Positions 15,660-58,942 of a DNA stretch of 64,000 bases are shown here, piece by piece. How positions within the stretch are numbered: the stretch's first letter is position 1; each line of letters opens with the position of its first letter. The stretch is from a virus. The stretch spans positions 64,001 to 128,000 of IMG/VR virus record IMGVR_UViG_3300022699_000302; one strand, given 5' to 3'. The translations under genes and the position numbers were made by a program. The notes under the pieces were generated by a model. That model was not told the DNA's origin and did not search any database. It saw only the letters and a list, made by a program, of their open reading frames with translations.

Positions 15660-15890
15660 TTAGTTGACGGGTTTGTCTTTGCCCTGCAGGTAGTCGCGGT
15701 TGACCTTCCAGAACTCCGCAAACTTCTCGGAGTCCCCGATCTTTTTCCCCAGCGACAGCGTCTCGTCCGGGGTCATTTTATTGGCCTTGTCTATCGCGGC
15801 CTCTACTTGATCGGCGGATTCGGGATCACCGTCGAACTCTAGCTCAACAGTGGTTTCCTCCGCAACTACAACTTGAATCTTTATGGGCAT
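15660..15890 (-). CDS. hypothetical protein directly downstream of array 1
   Basis: start MPIKIQ after GAGGA. Confidence 0.65.
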   Translation of the reverse strand: MPIKIQVVVAEETTVELEFDGDPESADQVEAAIDKANKMTPDETLSLGKKIGDSEKFAEFWKVNRDYLQGKDKPVN

Positions 15891-15900
15891 AAGATTTCCT

Positions 15901-16517
15901 CGGTTCACTCGCGGTCGACGTTGCTGTCCGTGTGTACGGCTCACTCTGCGGCAGTGTTACAGTTGTTGACGACGATTCACTTCTACGGCACGGCGTGGCT
16001 CACCTCGTACGGTTCACTCTTTTTGTACGGAACAGTTCTACGTCCCGGTTCACTCCTAATGAAGCAGTTCCAGGTCTAGGCTCAATCCTGTGTAGTGGTA
16101 CAGTCGGTGACGACGTTTCGATCAGCGCTTGCGGTGTAATCCAGAGTTGACGGCTCATTCCGGGTGCTTGGTACATTCGGGCGGGACGATTCATTCAACG
16201 AATCGGTACAATTTCTTTCTGCGATTGCTTTTCCTCTGAGAAACAGTCAAAGCCTACGGCTCATTTCATCTAAACAAAGCTTTCGCCAATGTCGATTCAT
16301 TCTGTTCATGCGTAGCTATCTTTTGATGTGATTCATTCGAGGCAAGCGGTACAGTCTCTTATGACGAGTCATTCGACGCAAACACTACAGTCAAATATGC
16401 CGATTCATTCGTTTGTTTTGGAGCAGTTCCTCCTGCCGATTCGATTTGTTACTCCGGTACTGACGTGTGTTACGTCTCGGTCGCGCGGATCGAAACAGTT
16501 ACCTGCTTCGATTAAAG
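15901..16517 (-). repeat. TIGR-like dual-repeat array 1 (about 17 units, 36-nt period)
   Basis: 18 edge motifs (+ strand CGRYTCAYT) from 15901 to 16509, spacing mostly 36; mid-unit motif CGGTACAGT; 9+9+9+9 layout. Confidence 0.8.
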
Positions 16518-16520
16518 GTG

Positions 16521-16650
16521 ATCAGGGCGACAAGGTGGCGTAGAGATACTAGAGCTCTTCCAGTTGAGCTACGGCCGAAGCCGACGGGACTCGAACCCGC
16601 AACCTCTTCGTTATCAGCGAAATGTAATCCCTACAGGTATTCGCCCTGAT
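16521..16650 (-). ncRNA. Y RNA (YrlA-like) 1
   Basis: 10-bp terminal helix AUCAGGGCGA/UCGCCCUGAU, 3' CCUUGUC; T arm GGUUCGAGUCC, UUCG-closed acceptor-like stem, then D arm UAGCUCA..AGAGC. Confidence 0.85.
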
Positions 16651-16651
16651 T

Positions 16652-16816
16652 TTAAATCTCATCGAATTCAGTGAGTTGGTGCTGGTCACGCTCTTTCGGG
16701 CTCATATTATCCCAGCAGCTCTTACAGACCACCGGGTACCCATGAGAATCCTCAAAGCAGCTTCCGCAGCACGAGCATTGAAGGCCTTCGACGATATCGT
16801 CAGCAATCTCTCCCAT
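16652..16816 (-). CDS. small Cys-rich protein (not in ORF track)
   Basis: 54 aa MGEIADDIVEGLQCSCCGSCF..GYPVVCKSC, translated by hand. Confidence 0.7.
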   Translation of the reverse strand: MGEIADDIVEGLQCSCCGSCFEDSHGYPVVCKSCWDNMSPKERDQHQLTEFDEI

Positions 16817-16975
16817 CACTTCTTCTTTGCGTGAGATAAAAAGAAGCCACCGACAGGTCGCGTCATAAGCCTATCCCCTCTCGTCATCGGCGGATTTCCA
16901 GGGAGACGTGACTACAGGGAGCTTCGTACCCAAGATGGGCTGTCGGTGGTGCCACTCCTCAAGCGGCAAAACAGA

Positions 16976-17113
16976 GAGAGTAACTGGGGGAAGGCTACTA
17001 TTCCCGGGGAAAGGCGGTCGCGACAGGTCAAACCTTTCCGTCTTCTTGTGTGACTTCAACCCTTCGTGCATCACACTCAGACGCCCTCGTTGTTTTGAAC
17101 ACCAGTTACTCTC
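16976..17113 (-). ncRNA. unknown structured RNA D
   Basis: 12-bp perfect terminal helix GAGAGUAACUGG/CCAGUUACUCUC plus internal arms. Confidence 0.6.
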
Positions 17114-17121
17114 AAAAGGCT

Positions 17122-17230
17122 AGCAGCAGGCGCGGGTCGTCCGTCTTTCTAAAGCGCCCCCGAGCGCGGGATCTGCGCCGGCGCCGGGCCGAGGTTTAGG
17201 TGCCTCGGTAGCCACCATGTTCCTGCTGCT
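17122..17230 (-). ncRNA. unknown structured RNA C
   Basis: 9-bp terminal helix AGCAGCAGG/CCUGCUGCU; internal CCGAGG/CCUCGG hairpin. Confidence 0.6.
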
Positions 17231-17243
17231 GTAAGGAAGGTCA

Positions 17244-17371
17244 GGGAGTAGGGTGTATACTGTGCCGTTCGGACTATAATCCTACCCACCTCTCGGCTTC
17301 GACGTGTATTTCAACACGCTAGGCCAGCCACCCATCGGCTATTTGCCTCTAGGCCACACTCGCCTACTCCC
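17244..17371 (-). ncRNA. unknown structured RNA B
   Basis: 9-bp terminal helix GGGAGUAGG/CCUACUCCC; internal hairpins. Confidence 0.6.
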
Positions 17372-17381
17372 ATAAAACCAT

Positions 17382-17494
17382 GCGCGGAGAAACTACTGGC
17401 CGGCAGTGGGTCCAAACCCGAAAGCCTATCCCGACTCAGCAGGGTGTGCCATCGAAGGCAGCAGATTCCTAAAGGTCTGCCACTCTCCCCGCGC
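17382..17494 (-). ncRNA. unknown structured RNA A
   Basis: terminal helix GCGCGG(GG)AGA/UCUCCGCGC plus internal hairpins; begins about 10 nt after the promoter motif. Confidence 0.55.
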
Positions 17495-17509
17495 GAAAAG
17501 TGTCTACTG

Positions 17510-17518
17510 TCTTAGGCC
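17510..17518 (-). promoter_or_regulatory. conserved phage promoter-like motif driving the ncRNA cluster
   Basis: GGCCTAAGA-CAG-TAGA. Confidence 0.7.
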
Positions 17519-17538
17519 GAACTCGGCCGGGAAAATGG

Positions 17539-17682
17539 TGCGGTGACAAGGTGTTGGAGAGATATTTACGCGCTCTATCCACTGAGCTACCCCACCACTT
17601 AGCTATGGTGGTGGGGGTGAGGAATCGAACCTCACGACCTCGTCCTTATGATGGAATGTAATCCCTCACGGCATTCACCGCA
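17539..17682 (-). ncRNA. Y RNA (YrlA-like) 2
   Basis: UGCGGUGA/UCACCGCA helix, 3' CCUUGUC; T arm GAGGUUCGAUUCCUC, 9-bp acceptor-like stem, D arm UAGCUCAGUGGAUAGAGC in permuted order. Confidence 0.85.
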
Positions 17683-17943
17683 TTTTCGTTTCGCGTCTCA
17701 GGCACAATCGGCTGCTACGACTCGTTCTTCATGTGCGCTACAGACGATATAGGCAACTCATTCAGACACTACGAGACCGTCTAGTTTGACGATTCGCTCG
17801 GTTGGTTCGAGACGCTCTAGAGATCCAGCTCGTTCTTCATGCACGTTGTGGTCATTTGAAGTGACTCACTCATTGACTACGGAGCCTGCGTTCAGCACGG
17901 TTCATTTTGCATCGGAGGATACGGTCGTCTGTGACGATTCAAT
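17682..17943 (-). repeat. TIGR-like dual-repeat array 2 (7 units)
   Basis: edge motifs at 17682, 17718, 17754, 17790, 17826, 17862, 17898, 17935 (six 36-nt spacings, one 37). Confidence 0.7.
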
Positions 17944-17949
17944 GTTGGC

Positions 17950-18019
17950 GGACCGACAAGGTTGTGTGGAGTCACGGTTCATTTCCAGTAATGATGTAGA
18001 CCCCTACGGCATTCGGTCC
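17950..18019 (-). ncRNA. short Y RNA 3 (no tRNA-like domain)
   Basis: GGACCGA/UCGGUCC helix; shares GAAUGCCGU..AGGG..UACAU and CCUUGUC with Y RNAs 1 and 2. Confidence 0.75.
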
Positions 18020-18072
18020 ATTGGTTGCGTCGGATGAAACCAAGTTGTCAAAGAAGCCACAAGAGGGCCCGG

Positions 18073-19686
18073 TTATACCAGGCCCTTCTTGATGGCGTCA
18101 ACCCAGTGATTCGTGCCCCCTCTGTCTTCCAGGAAGGTTGAGATGGCGTCGAACACTGAGTCATTGAACCCCCCAACATTCAGAACGTCGGGACGATTCA
18201 CGACCTGTGTGGTCGGGTGGGGCTGAAGGTCGATTAAGACCAACTTGGCATCGGGTCGGTCGGCTCGCTTTTTCCACTCATCCCAGTAATACTGCAGACC
18301 AGTACGATTCTTGGTGTAGTGGCGTGCAGGATCATTGGAGAAGTCCGCCCAGGACTCCATGTCCGAGAGAATGACAACAGCATCGAGATCGAATATCTTG
18401 TTGTCGATCAAGTACTGGATCGCCGAACTACAATCAGTCCCCCCGCCGGAACGTGCCAGCTGATTTACCAGGGTAAAAATGGAGTCACGGTCGGTAACCG
18501 ACGCGAGTTTCGCTGCAGTATCAAATTGGACGACCTTTGCGTCGGGCTGGGAGTGAAGGATGCATGCTGCCATGAGCGCTGCAACCTCACAGCATCGCAC
18601 GTCCCGGGCACCGGCACGCCTCCAGCCTCCCCGGGTGGTGGCCTTACCGACTGCGAGAGCTTGCATCGAGTACGACACGTCCACGCAAACAGCTGCCTTT
18701 CCGAAACGGGGCACGTTATCGATCGAGATCTCGACCGTATCGTGCAAGGCATTTTTGATCTTGGTCGGAATGCCTTCATTGAGGTGGCGGTAGGTCTGGT
18801 AGAGCTGGTACGGGAAGATCCGCTGCTTCTTGATTTGCTCCACATCGGTCAGCTGTTCGACTGCATACTCGACGAATCCCGTATCCTTGAGCACTTCATG
18901 GCGCTCCAGGGTATTGAGGTTCATCCGAAGAGCATGAAGTCCCATCTGGTGCCCCAAGACCTTCCAGTCCCGGGTCGAGAGATCGGGGATCGAAGTCAGG
19001 AGGCGAAACTCGATGCCCTTGGGCTTGCGGTTGCGATACCCCGCCTTCCATTCCTCGAAAACCTTCGCTACTTCGGGGAGCAGCTCCTCGTTGTAGTTGC
19101 GCCCGATCAGGTATGCATACAGGTTTGAGCGGGCTTGATCCGAGGGCTTGGGATGGATCATGTGAATGATGTCAGCGATCGACGGATCGTTACCAACTGA
19201 ATCCCTGAACAGAGCGGCGGGATGACGCTTGTTCAACCAGTGCTCGATCAGCTTCTTCAGCCAGGTGCCGAAGCTTTTTCGACCGAACCGCCCCGAACGA
19301 ATGAATTGCGCGAAGTTGCGGAGCATCCTCCCGTTATCGATCACATGCGGGAATGCCTCGTTGAACTTAACACGGTCGACTCCGGTCTGACTTGCCGCGA
19401 ACGCCATGAGAGCGGCCGGCATATCCTTCATCCACGCTTTCTTGCGCGAGTACACCGCGACATCGATGACGAAGTTCGGGTCGACCTTGCGCGCAGCCTC
19501 CAGGAGGGTCTCGAGCTGCTTCTCGCCGGTGGCGTAGAACGTGTTGTAAAAAGTACCGGTACACGCGTATTGTGCCAAGAGCTCTTCCGGATCGAGCTTC
19601 ATAGCGGCGCCTCCAGCCTCGTTGACCGTATGCTTGACCTCGATCTCGTGGGCCTTGGCTGACTTGAACATTTTCTTGTTCGCCAT
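18073..19686 (-). CDS. rsr: Ro60-related TROVE/vWA RNA-binding protein
   Basis: TROVE region (VNEAGG.., FGRKSFG, ALRMNLNT, RIFPYQ) plus vWA VCVDVSYSM, GGTDC; start MANKK after AGGAG. Confidence 0.9.
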   Translation of the reverse strand: MANKKMFKSAKAHEIEVKHTVNEAGGAAMKLDPEELLAQYACTGTFYNTFYATGEKQLETLLEAARKVDPNFVIDVAVYSRKKAWMKDMPAALMAFAASQTGVDRVKFNEAFPHVIDNGRMLRNFAQFIRSGRFGRKSFGTWLKKLIEHWLNKRHPAALFRDSVGNDPSIADIIHMIHPKPSDQARSNLYAYLIGRNYNEELLPEVAKVFEEWKAGYRNRKPKGIEFRLLTSIPDLSTRDWKVLGHQMGLHALRMNLNTLERHEVLKDTGFVEYAVEQLTDVEQIKKQRIFPYQLYQTYRHLNEGIPTKIKNALHDTVEISIDNVPRFGKAAVCVDVSYSMQALAVGKATTRGGWRRAGARDVRCCEVAALMAACILHSQPDAKVVQFDTAAKLASVTDRDSIFTLVNQLARSGGGTDCSSAIQYLIDNKIFDLDAVVILSDMESWADFSNDPARHYTKNRTGLQYYWDEWKKRADRPDAKLVLIDLQPHPTTQVVNRPDVLNVGGFNDSVFDAISTFLEDRGGTNHWVDAIKKGLV

Positions 19687-19730
19687 TTGGGTCTCCTGTT
19701 CCCAACAAAAAAGAAAGCAGTATTGCTCTA

Positions 19731-19739
19731 CCTTAGGCC
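19731..19739 (-). promoter_or_regulatory. promoter-like motif upstream of ro60
   Basis: GGCCTAAGG-TAGA variant. Confidence 0.55.
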
Positions 19740-19761
19740 AGATCACCAACGAAATCTGGGT

Positions 19762-58695: not shown

Positions 58696-58786
58696 TGGCA
58701 CAGCGGGGAGGACTCGAACCTCCAACCTTCCTACTAAGCGGACGGGCCCGCTTTTCAGATGCTCTACGCAATTGAGCTACCGCTGT
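58696..58786 (-). tRNA. tRNA-like RNA with anticodon loop replaced by a hairpin (no readable anticodon)
   Basis: acceptor ACAGCGG/CCGCUGU, GCCA end, D arm GCUC..GAGC, T arm GGAGGUUCGAGUCCUCC; 21-nt anticodon region AAGCGG-GCCCGU-CCGCUU. Confidence 0.75.
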
Positions 58787-58787
58787 G

Positions 58788-58863
58788 TGGTGCAGGGAGA
58801 AGGACTCGAACCTTCATTTCCGAGCTTAAGAGCTCGGGTCCTAACCAATTGGATGATCCCTGC
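58788..58863 (-). tRNA. tRNA, Lys(CUU)-like, with non-canonical anticodon loop
   Basis: GCAGGGA/UCCCUGC, ACCA end; arm CCGAGC-UCUUAA-GCUCGG gives a 6-nt (or 8-nt) loop. Confidence 0.75.
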
Positions 58864-58864
58864 T

Positions 58865-58942
58865 TGGCGGTCCCGGCGGGATTCGAACCCACACCCTCCT
58901 GAGTTTAGAGCCCAGGCGCGCTGCCAGTCGCGCTTCGGGACC
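58865..58942 (-). tRNA. amber suppressor tRNA (anticodon CUA)
   Basis: GGUCCCG/CGGGACC, GCCA end; 6-bp anticodon stem CCUGGG/CUCAGG, loop CU-CUA-AA; canonical D-loop GG and T-loop UUCGAAU. Confidence 0.85.

What the first reader, a model, noticed from the sequence alone, without database searches (positions are those of the whole stretch)
15660..19749. Ro60-Y RNA locus interleaved with TIGR-like guide arrays: a candidate new RNA-guided system layout
Seen: on the minus strand the order is promoter motif, ro60, Y RNA 3, array 2, Y RNA 2, promoter motif, four unknown structured RNAs, a small Cys protein, Y RNA 1, array 1, then a small gene. Each array begins within about 4-7 nt of a Y RNA 3' end. 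Known: Ro60/Rsr binds Y RNAs, which can tether it to PNPase; TIGR arrays are processed into 36-nt guides for Nop-domain Tas proteins and normally lie near tas genes. I know of no report of the two systems coupled. Inference: the Y RNAs may act as leaders or processing signals for guide precursors, or Ro60 may stabilise the guides; the only Tas-like gene in the window (39577..40632) would act in trans.
Basis: partly seen in the sequence, partly recalled or inferred. Interest (0 to 1): 0.95.

Follow-up and report, generated by a model that had tools for sequence, protein, structure and literature searches.

The report
TIGR guide arrays inside Ro60–Y RNA operon
A complete 194-kb soil phage has placed two guide-RNA arrays of the recently described TIGR-Tas system directly against the small Y RNAs of its Ro60 RNA-quality-control gene, 22 kb from the Tas protein that should use the guides; the layout is real and unreported, but comparison with other phages does not show that the two systems work together.

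Summary
On the minus strand lie a Ro60 gene, three Y RNAs (two tRNA-like YrlA-type, one minimal) and two degenerate 36-nt dual-repeat arrays. Each array starts exactly 5 nt after a Y RNA. Array 2 fills the whole gap between two Y RNAs. The 351-aa gene at 39577-40632 is a true nuclease-less Tas protein. About 70 of 80 viral homologues sit beside 36-nt arrays whose repeats resemble the window's.

Neither array has room for its own promoter, and the phage's recurrent promoter motif lies only upstream of each block. I therefore read the locus as two composite non-coding RNA operons whose precursors yield Y RNAs and tigRNAs, with TasA acting in trans.

Functional coupling to Ro60 is unproven:
- 0 of 128 array or Tas loci carry a Y RNA or Ro60.
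- The nearest relative has a different layout just after ro60.
- Another phage has a similar remote array with no Y RNA.
- TIGR arrays mature in E. coli without Ro60.

In favour, one unrelated jumbo-phage lineage puts its main array 2.8 kb downstream of ro60 and a Y-RNA cluster.

Earlier notes of this scan report remote TIGR arrays in several other phages, so the split layout itself is not new here. Verdict: new variant of a known kind, interest 0.6.

The parts
19731..19739 (-). Phage promoter-like motif (GGCCTAAGG variant) about 45 nt upstream of the ro60 ATG
   Evidence: The motif GGCCTAAGA/G occurs 29 times in the genome, 26 on the minus strand. It typically lies after terminators and 30-50 nt before an RBS and ATG.
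18073..19686 (-). ro60 (TROVE + vWA), 537 aa
   Evidence: Pfam vWA_Ro60 3e-11 and TROVE 4.7e-6. PDB Rsr 2nvo 3.2e-16. 41.5% identical to the Myxococcus phage Mx1 TROVE protein. The gene call P0121 is 537 aa.
18021..18043 (-). 23-bp palindrome TTGGTTTCATCCGACGCAACCAA, ending 1 nt before Y RNA 3
   Evidence: About 11 intergenic copies of this palindrome occur in the genome. The stretch is nearly invariant in relative L007, while the Y RNA after it differs.
17950..18019 (-). Y RNA 3: minimal Y RNA, Ro60-binding stem only, no tRNA-like module
   Evidence: Descriptor hit with a perfect 7-bp terminal stem plus the GAAUGCCGUAGGG and CCUUGUC motifs shared with Y1 and Y2. Fold -22 kcal/mol, z -1.8. No Rfam hit. 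Its loop carries the 10-mer AAATGAACCG, identical to an array-2 edge repeat.
17682..17944 (-). TIGR-like array 2: 7 units plus a terminal 3'-degenerate edge repeat, filling the gap between Y3 and Y2
   Evidence: A weight matrix trained on array 1 hits 17944, 17907, 17799, 17763 and 17727 in phase. Edge and loop repeats are listed.
17540..17681 (-). Y RNA 2: YrlA-type with T-arm and D-arm-like module
   Evidence: Rfam YrlA 44.6 bits, E 9.7e-8, below GA 69. Descriptor hit. Fold z -3.8.
17510..17518 (-). Second promoter-like motif GGCCTAAGA (followed by CAGTAGAC), about 15 nt before the first closed-stem RNA
16976..17494 (-). Four back-to-back closed-stem RNAs of unknown class (17494-17382, 17371-17244, 17230-17122, 17113-16976)
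   Evidence: Terminal helices of 9-12 bp; z-scores -1.97, -3.64, -1.64 and -3.06. No Rfam family. A fifth candidate at 16965-16847 is not supported (z -0.5).
16652..16819 (-). Small Cys-rich ORF (55 aa, CxxC...CxxC)
   Evidence: ORF list. No Pfam hit. One 55%-identical homologue, in an unrelated context.
16524..16647 (-). Y RNA 1: YrlA-type with tRNA-like module
   Evidence: Rfam YrlA 56.1 bits, E 4.5e-11, below GA 69. Descriptor hit.
15901..16518 (-). TIGR-like array 1: 18 edge repeats, about 17 units of 32-37 nt. R1 is GAATGAATCG or GAGTGAACCG; R2 is GACTGTACCG; spacers are 8 nt.
   Evidence: Unit tables. Up to 14 conserved columns of 36, against a genome mean of 1.2.
15660..15890 (-). Small gene (76 aa) starting 10 nt after the last edge repeat, followed by a hairpin at 15639-15605
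   Evidence: Read from the sequence: AGGA, 6 nt, then ATG. No Pfam hit.
39577..40632 (-). tasA-like gene (351 aa, all-helical, no nuclease domain), 22 kb from the arrays
   Evidence: phmmer to PDB TasH 21kl E 6.8e-6 and TasR 9mty E 8.9e-5. AF2 pLDDT 90.9. The top 10 Foldseek hits are all TasH or TasR, probability 1.0. 1716 homologues. About 70 of 80 viral homologues sit next to a 36-nt array.

Best explanation
The locus consists of two composite non-coding RNA operons of an Mx1-like 194-kb phage.

Transcription unit 1 runs: promoter motif at 19739, ro60, a palindromic hairpin, Y RNA 3, array 2, Y RNA 2.

Transcription unit 2 runs: promoter motif at 17518, four closed-stem RNAs, a small Cys protein, Y RNA 1, array 1, a small gene.

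The two arrays are genuine, somewhat degenerate dual-repeat TIGR arrays. They have 10-nt pseudo-symmetric repeats of the form GAnTGnAnCG and 8-nt spacers.

How it most likely works:
- The arrays are transcribed as parts of the same precursors as the Y RNAs. This is inferred from the 0-5 nt junctions and the absence of a promoter or terminator between them.
- The precursors are cut up by host RNases. Ro60 keeps the Y RNAs. The TasA protein encoded 22 kb away binds the 36-nt units and uses them as guides, probably for DNA binding or repression, since it has no nuclease domain.
- The structured Y RNAs set the 5' end of both arrays and the 3' end of array 2, replacing the promoter and terminator that usually flank such arrays.
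- No direct action of Ro60 on the guides is required.

Shown: the anatomy, the Tas family membership and the repeat kinship with arrays beside Tas homologues. Inferred: co-transcription, action in trans and processing.
For: TIGR grammar of the arrays:
- 36-nt period, two alternating 10-nt repeats and 8-nt spacers.
- The first repeat is 5'-degenerate and, in array 2, the last repeat is 3'-degenerate, as described for TIGR arrays.
- Both repeats share GAnTGnAnCG. Relatives share GAnnGAnnCA in both repeats, so the last base co-varies between the two repeats.

The Tas gene is real and cognate in kind:
- Searches place it in the Tas family.
- About 70 of 80 viral homologues have adjacent 36-nt arrays with R1 GAACGAGTCA, close to the window's GAATGAATCG and GAACGAGTCG.
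- It is the only such gene in the genome, and no array lies beside it.

Co-transcription:
- Junctions are 5, 5 and 0 nt.
- No sigma-70-like promoter or terminator was found on the minus strand inside 15.7-19.8 kb.
- The phage promoter motif is present only at 19739 and 17518.
- Arrays, Y RNAs and ro60 all lie on the same strand.

Precedents:
- M. smegmatis YrlA and YrlB are processed from a single precursor (PMC4201824).
- Arrays remote from tas occur elsewhere: in G011 the array lies 10 kb from tas and has R1 GAATGAATCA. Earlier notes of this scan report more.
Against: - There are no expression data, so the promoter motif and co-transcription are inferences from sequence.
- The arrays are degenerate (10-14 conserved columns against 15-25 in relatives) and unit lengths vary from 32 to 37 nt, so some units may be dead.
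- A terminator lies between the upstream promoter motif and the tas ATG, so the timing of tas expression is unknown.
- No target for any spacer pair was found in the phage's own genome above control level.
Confidence: 0.6

Rival explanations
1. There is true functional coupling. The Y RNAs flanking the arrays recruit Ro60 in cis, and through it a host 3'-5' exonuclease such as PNPase. This trims, phases or protects the pre-tigRNA, so Ro60 and Y RNA act as an accessory maturation or stabilisation module for this TIGR-Tas system.
For: - The linker is the same 5 nt at both Y-RNA-to-array junctions, and array 2 is bracketed exactly by two Y RNAs.
- The RNase that matures tigRNAs is unknown, and no accessory RNA has been found (PMC12045711).
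- Phage Ro60 with Y-like RNAs binds and modulates host PNPase, an enzyme used in crRNA trimming (PMC12135203).
- In an unrelated AT-rich jumbo-phage lineage (L134), the main array lies 2.8 kb downstream of ro60 and at least 12 Y-like RNAs.
- 0 of 50 other long-Ro60 viral records carry this Tas family, so both long-Ro60 lineages seen here to carry TIGR arrays place them next to the Y cluster.
- A clade of 58-96 kb Tas phages also keeps a short TROVE protein with a Y RNA.
Against: - TIGR arrays from distant organisms are processed precisely in E. coli, which lacks Ro60 (PMC12045711).
- 0 of 80 Tas loci and 0 of 48 similar-repeat loci have a Y RNA or Ro60 within about 10 kb.
- In L134 a terminator and about 100 nt separate the Y cluster from the array.
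- In the TROVE-bearing Tas clade the two modules lie 7-36 kb apart, and the clade counts as one lineage.
- The nearest relative's layout after ro60 differs.
- Clustering of RNA genes in phage genomes could explain the proximity.
Confidence: 0.2
2. The arrays are decaying relics or passengers. They were inserted into the Y RNA operon by recombination and no longer yield functional guides.
For: - Repeat conservation is lower than in relatives, and unit lengths are irregular at 32, 35 and 37 nt.
- The closest relative seems to lack array 2 at the same place.
- No self-targets were found.
Against: - The tas gene is intact and models confidently.
- The key box positions (G1, A2, T4, G5, C9) are kept in most of the 25 units, in both repeats.
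- Canonical arrays of relatives also show phase slips and degenerate end units.
- Published surveys say TIGR arrays generally lack strong sequence conservation (abstract).
Confidence: 0.1
3. The 36-nt periodic stretches are not guide arrays but DNA-level arrays of binding sites, or chance periodicity in non-coding DNA.
For: No direct RNA evidence is available.
Against: - The repeats match those of arrays flanking Tas homologues in dozens of phages.
- They occur as two independent arrays on one strand.
- The weight matrix gives only scattered single hits in the rest of the 194-kb genome on both strands. The best of these, at genome 154598, lies in an open reading frame.
Confidence: 0.03

Closest known systems
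Dual-repeat TIGR-TasA systems (e.g. FpTIGR/FpTasA of Flavonifractor plautii; Faure et al. 2025, PMC12045711; Xu et al. 2026 preprint 10.64898/2026.09.09.750476)
   Same: - 36-nt units built of two alternating, mutually similar roughly 10-nt repeats and two short spacers.
- Truncated edge repeats at the array ends.
- A nuclease-less, all-helical Nop/IS110-like Tas protein.
- A phage host.
   Different: - The arrays lie 22 kb from tas, not beside it.
- They have no promoter or terminator of their own.
- They are embedded between Y RNAs in operons headed by ro60 and by unknown structured RNAs.
- The repeats are more degenerate, and the closing base of both repeats is G rather than A.
Bacterial and phage Ro60 (Rsr)-Y RNA modules (YrlA/YrlB; Chen et al. 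2014, PMC4201824; Thermus phage phiLo Ro60, PMC12135203)
   Same: - A TROVE+vWA protein with several Y RNAs encoded next to it on the same strand.
- At least one Y RNA with a tRNA-like module, plus a shorter one without.
- Y RNAs of M. smegmatis are processed from a common precursor.
   Different: - Guide-RNA arrays are interleaved with the Y RNAs.
- Four further closed-stem RNAs share the operon.
- The Y RNAs score below Rfam's YrlA gathering threshold.
Dicistronic tRNA-snoRNA and polycistronic snoRNA genes of plants (cited in PMC12045711, refs 65-67)
   Same: A box C/D-type guide RNA is co-transcribed with a tRNA-shaped RNA, whose processing frees the guide precursor.
   Different: Those genes are eukaryotic, processed by RNase Z, and hold single snoRNAs rather than tandem 36-nt arrays. 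Here the tRNA-like fold is internal to a Y RNA, and the analogy is untested.
Remote ('orphan') TIGR arrays in jumbo phages noted earlier in this scan (e1-5339242, e1-5659526, e1-5676550) and G011 found here
   Same: A real dual-repeat array encoded tens of kb from the only tas gene. G011's edge repeat, GAATGAATCA, nearly equals the window's.
   Different: Those arrays have their own flanks. Only the L134-like lineage (e1-5339242/-251) also lies near ro60 and Y RNAs, and none abuts a Y RNA.

Membership tests
Dual-repeat TIGR array | Tandem units of about 36 nt repeated at least 5 times | tested here: met
   Array 1 has 17 units (mostly 36 nt, range 32-37). Array 2 has 7 units.
Dual-repeat TIGR array | Two distinct alternating 8-12-nt repeats separated by 8-12-nt variable spacers | tested here: met
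   R1 is GAATGAATCG-like, then 8 nt, then R2 GACTGTACCG-like, then 8 nt.
Dual-repeat TIGR array | Edge and loop repeats share box-like end motifs that co-vary, giving pseudo-symmetry for a Tas dimer | tested here: met
   Both repeats fit GAnTGnAnCG. In relatives both fit GAnnGAnnCA, so the last base changes in both repeats together.
Dual-repeat TIGR array | [quoted passage not shown] | tested here: met
   The first repeats, CCTTTAATCG and CATTGAATCG, keep only the 3' half. The last repeat of array 2, AAACGAAAAT, keeps only the 5' half. Array 1 ends with a full repeat.
Dual-repeat TIGR array | Located directly upstream or downstream of a tas gene, usually followed by a terminator | tested here: not met
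   The tas gene is 22 kb away and has no array beside it. The arrays end at Y RNA 2 and at a gene's ribosome-binding site.
Dual-repeat TIGR array | Transcribed and processed into 36-nt tigRNAs bound by Tas | not testable with these tools
   Needs small-RNA sequencing or pull-down.
Tas protein (TasA type) | Nop/IS110-C-terminal-like RNA-binding fold shared with solved TasH and TasR | tested here: met
   The AF2 model has pLDDT 90.9. Foldseek ranks 1-10 are all TasH or TasR (E 3.9e-6 to 9e-4, probability 1.0), followed by the IS621 recombinase. phmmer gives TasH 6.8e-6. Pfam Transposase_20 hits at 1.4e-5. Pfam Nop itself gives no hit.
Tas protein (TasA type) | No HNH or RuvC nuclease domain | tested here: met
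   The protein is 351 aa and all-helical, with no other Pfam domain.
Tas protein (TasA type) | Family members are encoded next to TIGR arrays | tested here: met
   About 70 of 80 IMG/VR loci with homologues have an array of 36 nt or close to it, with at least 14 conserved columns, at or near tas.
Ro60/Rsr (TROVE) | TROVE (HEAT-repeat ring) plus a C-terminal vWA domain | tested here: met
   Both Pfam domains score above their cut-offs. The alignment to Rsr 2nvo covers residues 35-469.
Y RNA (YrlA type, RF02553) | Score at or above Rfam's gathering threshold (69 bits) | tested here: not met
   56.1 and 44.6 bits (E 4.5e-11 and 9.7e-8). Y RNA 3 gives no hit.
Y RNA (YrlA type, RF02553) | Terminal Ro60-binding helix with a conserved CGAA-type bulge motif, maintained by compensatory changes | tested here: met
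   The three 7-bp stems, AGGGCGA/TCGCCCT, GCGGTGA/TCACCGC and GGACCGA/TCGGTCC, differ in sequence but are fully complementary. Each is followed by (C/U)GAAU(G/A)CC and preceded by CCUUG.
Y RNA (YrlA type, RF02553) | Internal tRNA-like module (T-arm, D-arm-like) | tested here: met
   Present in Y1 and Y2: GGTTCGAnTCC and GTAGCTCA..GG.AGAGC align to the model. Absent in Y3, which is a minimal, YrlB-like form.
Y RNA (YrlA type, RF02553) | Encoded next to a Ro60 gene; bound by Ro60 | tested here: inconclusive
   Adjacency is met: the Y RNAs lie 53 nt to 1.4 kb downstream on the same strand. Binding cannot be tested here.

The most novel reading that the evidence does not exclude
Y RNAs built into the same precursor as the guide arrays tether Ro60, and through it a host exonuclease such as PNPase, to the pre-tigRNA. 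This would be the first accessory ribonucleoprotein for TIGR guide maturation or protection, and a first defined substrate class for a phage Ro60.
Probability: 0.15. Interest if true: 0.85.

Novelty: new variant of a known kind. Interest (0 to 1): 0.6.

Why it matters
Two questions are open in the literature read here. One is which RNase and which signals mature TIGR guide RNAs. The other is what phage Ro60-Y RNA modules are for.

This locus puts the two side by side in one precursor, so one small-RNA experiment with a few deletions could test a link.

It also shows that TIGR arrays can be expressed without a promoter or terminator of their own and far from tas. Surveys that look only around tas genes (20,096 tas loci but 6,685 arrays found) would miss such arrays.

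Tried and rejected
- Close relatives in IMG/VR by Ro60 peptide patterns: none found.
- Myxococcus phage Mx1, the nearest named phage: tRNAs lie near its ro60, but there is no YrlA hit and no array.
- Retrieving the array region of the 83-86% relative (Logan SRR17165164): only 2.4- and 3.2-kb contigs were reachable. A search with the small Cys protein gave one unrelated 944-bp contig.
- Spacer targets in the phage's own genome, testing both strand geometries and 0-2 bp gaps: 8 near-matches against 2-11 in re-paired controls, so no signal. The host is unknown, and 16-nt words are too short for database-wide searches.
- Control for genome-level co-occurrence of Ro60 and Tas: only 18 records were searchable, about 14 of them without Tas, and all were negative. 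This is too few to conclude anything.
- L105's 36-nt signal is a collagen-like coding repeat.
- The isolated weight-matrix hit at genome 154598 lies in an open frame.
- HGTV-1's Ro60 locus has no array.
- G014 and G030, which carry both Tas and TROVE, have no 36-nt array anywhere.
- The resemblance of the Y RNA 5' strand (GAAUGCC) to the edge repeat (GAAUGAAUCG) was rejected as evidence of common origin. Arrays in phages without Y RNAs carry the same repeat.
- I built no custom covariance model for Y RNAs. The stem descriptor missed the short-TROVE clade's Y RNAs that Rfam found, so the negative Y RNA result in Tas loci rests mainly on the absence of Ro60 by tblastn.

Full report
**Context.** The window is bases 64001-128000 of a complete 194,114-bp viral record with direct terminal repeats. 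Its Ro60 is 41.5% identical to that of Myxococcus phage Mx1, the nearest named phage.

**Checking the observation**

The ORF 18073-19749(-) carries the TROVE and Ro60-vWA domains. It aligns to D. radiodurans Rsr at E 3.2e-16. The collection's gene call is 537 aa, which puts the start at ATG 19686.

Rfam's YrlA model matches 16521-16647 and 17537-17681 on the minus strand. The E-values are 4.5e-11 and 9.7e-8, but both scores fall below the curated threshold.

I wrote a simple descriptor: a 7-bp terminal stem around A-(A/T)-T-(G/A)-C-C ... CTTG. It finds exactly three elements in the whole genome, against 0.2 expected in shuffles. They are the two YrlA hits and a 70-nt minimal Y RNA at 18019-17950. 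The three stems differ in sequence but stay fully complementary.

Printing the minus strand in rows of 36 shows two periodic arrays.
- Array 1 (16518-15901) has 18 edge repeats.
- A weight matrix trained on array 1 re-finds array 2 (17944-17682) in phase. It finds only scattered single hits in the rest of the genome.

With the correct register each unit is a 10-nt repeat, an 8-nt spacer, a second 10-nt repeat and an 8-nt spacer. The two repeats resemble each other (GAnTGnAnCG).

Both arrays begin 5 nt after a Y RNA stem. Array 2 ends with a 3'-degenerate repeat that touches the first base of Y RNA 2.

**The Tas gene**

The 351-aa product of 39577-40632(-) hits the IS110 C-terminal Pfam family. 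It also hits solved TasH and TasR sequences.

An AlphaFold model built on 38 homologues has pLDDT 90.9. Its ten best PDB matches are all TasH or TasR cryo-EM structures, followed by the IS621 bridge recombinase. It has no nuclease domain, so it is TasA-like.

It is the only such gene in the genome. Its flanks hold a small gene and a terminator, not an array.

The family has 1716 detectable members. In 80 IMG/VR loci with homologues, about 70 have a strongly periodic array of 36 nt or close to it right beside the gene. The repeats there, GAACGAGTCA and GAGAGAACCA, are close to the window's. Array 2 even contains GAACGAGTCG.

In relatives both repeats end in A; in the window both mostly end in G. 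This is the edge/loop covariation described by Faure et al.. Hence the arrays are TIGR arrays by grammar and by kinship, served in trans.

**Transcription units**

A motif GGCCTAAGA, usually followed by nnnTAGAG, occurs 29 times in the genome, 26 on the coding (minus) strand. It typically lies just after terminators and 30-50 nt ahead of a ribosome-binding site, so I read it as the phage's own promoter.

Copies lie at 19739 (before ro60) and 17518 (before the four closed-stem RNAs). None lies before either array. The generic scan finds no sigma-70-like promoter or terminator on the minus strand inside the locus.

With junctions of 0-5 nt there is no room for a promoter unless it lies inside a Y RNA. 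Co-transcription of Y RNAs and arrays is therefore the natural reading.

A 23-bp palindrome that recurs about 11 times in the genome ends 1 nt before Y RNA 3. It is almost invariant in the closest relative. It may be an operator or a processing hairpin between the ro60 mRNA and the RNA block.

**Is the adjacency conserved?**

Evidence against conservation:
- The 83%-identical relative (Logan contig L007) keeps the ro60 end and the palindrome. It then has a tRNA-like Y RNA followed by a second Y RNA, not the minimal Y RNA plus array. The contig ends 217 nt after ro60.
- A 46% relative (L008) has four Y RNAs and no array.
- None of the 80 Tas loci has a credible Y RNA or a Ro60 gene within about 10 kb. 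The same holds for the 48 loci found with a two-repeat DNA pattern.
- G011, a 141-kb phage, has an array with almost the window's edge repeat 10 kb from its tas, again without a Y RNA.

Evidence for an association:
- Among 80 viral Ro60 loci, many have one to seven Y RNAs, but only L134 has a true array. L134 is a 165-kb fragment of an AT-rich jumbo phage.
- In L134, ro60 is followed by at least 12 Y-like RNAs and tRNAs, then a terminator, then the array about 2.8 kb from ro60.
- No Tas of this family is found in that fragment.
I did not verify this.
- None of 50 other long-Ro60 viral records has this Tas family. So both long-Ro60 lineages in which I found TIGR arrays have the main array next to the Y RNA cluster and away from tas.
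- Five of 50 Tas-bearing viral genomes encode a short TROVE+vWA protein with a YrlA-like RNA just upstream. However, they form one clade, the modules lie 7-36 kb apart, and two of them have no array at all.

**Weighing**

The sequence shows a physical fusion of two RNA systems into common precursors. What it does not show is dependence.
- TIGR arrays are processed correctly in E. coli, which has no Ro60, and Tas itself is required for processing (PMC12045711).
- Y RNAs of M. smegmatis are cut from a shared precursor (PMC4201824).
- Phage Ro60 with Y-like RNAs can bind and damp host PNPase, an enzyme used for crRNA trimming (PMC12135203).

A Ro60/Y RNA contribution to guide trimming or protection is therefore plausible but unsupported. 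I give it about 0.2, and 0.6 to the plain composite-operon reading.

**Novelty**

The two TIGR papers read here never mention Ro60 or Y RNA, nor tRNA in connection with arrays. The large survey looked only around tas genes.

Remote arrays have been noted repeatedly in this scan, so the new element is the embedding of arrays between Y RNAs. I class the finding as a new variant of a known kind.

Noticed in passing
window 19739, 17518, 15258, 39575, 41036 and 24 other sites in G000: A phage-specific promoter-like motif, GGCCTAAGA-nnn-TAGAG, with a T7-like CTATAGAG core. It has 29 copies, 26 on the minus strand, mostly just after terminators. This suggests a dedicated phage RNA polymerase or sigma factor.
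   Followed up: partly
window 18021-18043 and about 10 other intergenic sites in G000 (e.g. window 45855, 56467): A 23-bp palindrome, TTGGYTKCATCSRATGCARCCAA. It often lies directly upstream of the promoter motif or of an RBS and ATG. It could be an operator of a dimeric regulator or an RNA processing hairpin.
   Followed up: partly
window 16976-17494 (-): Four tandem 109-138-nt RNAs, each closed by a 9-12 bp helix with 3-4 internal hairpins (z -1.6 to -3.6). No Rfam family matches them. A similar closed-stem element may follow the Y RNAs in L008 (11385-11560).
   Followed up: partly
window 58699-58942 (-): Three clustered tRNA genes. ARAGORN calls only two of them: one with a CUA anticodon (amber-suppressor-like, labelled tRNA-Pyl) and one with a four-base anticodon (ctta). 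This hints at stop-codon or frameshift suppression in this phage.
   Followed up: no
L134 9700-12260 (IMGVR_UViG_3300030508_000013): An AT-rich jumbo phage encodes at least 12 consecutive Y-RNA-like elements plus tRNAs downstream of ro60. This is an unusually large Y RNA battery. It is followed by a terminator and a long TIGR array.
   Followed up: partly
L225-L229 (G014, G023, G030, G033, G045): A clade of 58-96 kb Tas-encoding phages carries short (381-486 aa) TROVE+vWA proteins, each with a YrlA-like RNA just upstream. G014 and G030 have a Tas gene but no detectable 36-nt array anywhere in the complete genome.
   Followed up: partly
L238 14277-16350 (G011, 141-kb DTR phage): A TIGR array whose edge repeat (GAATGAATCA) nearly equals the window's lies about 10 kb from its tas gene. 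This is another split TIGR-Tas layout.
   Followed up: partly
window 17974-17983 (-), inside Y RNA 3: The loop of the minimal Y RNA contains AAATGAACCG, identical to the edge repeat at 17907. It lies 40 nt upstream of the first array unit. It may be a relic of recombination between an array and a Y RNA, or a Tas half-site.
   Followed up: no
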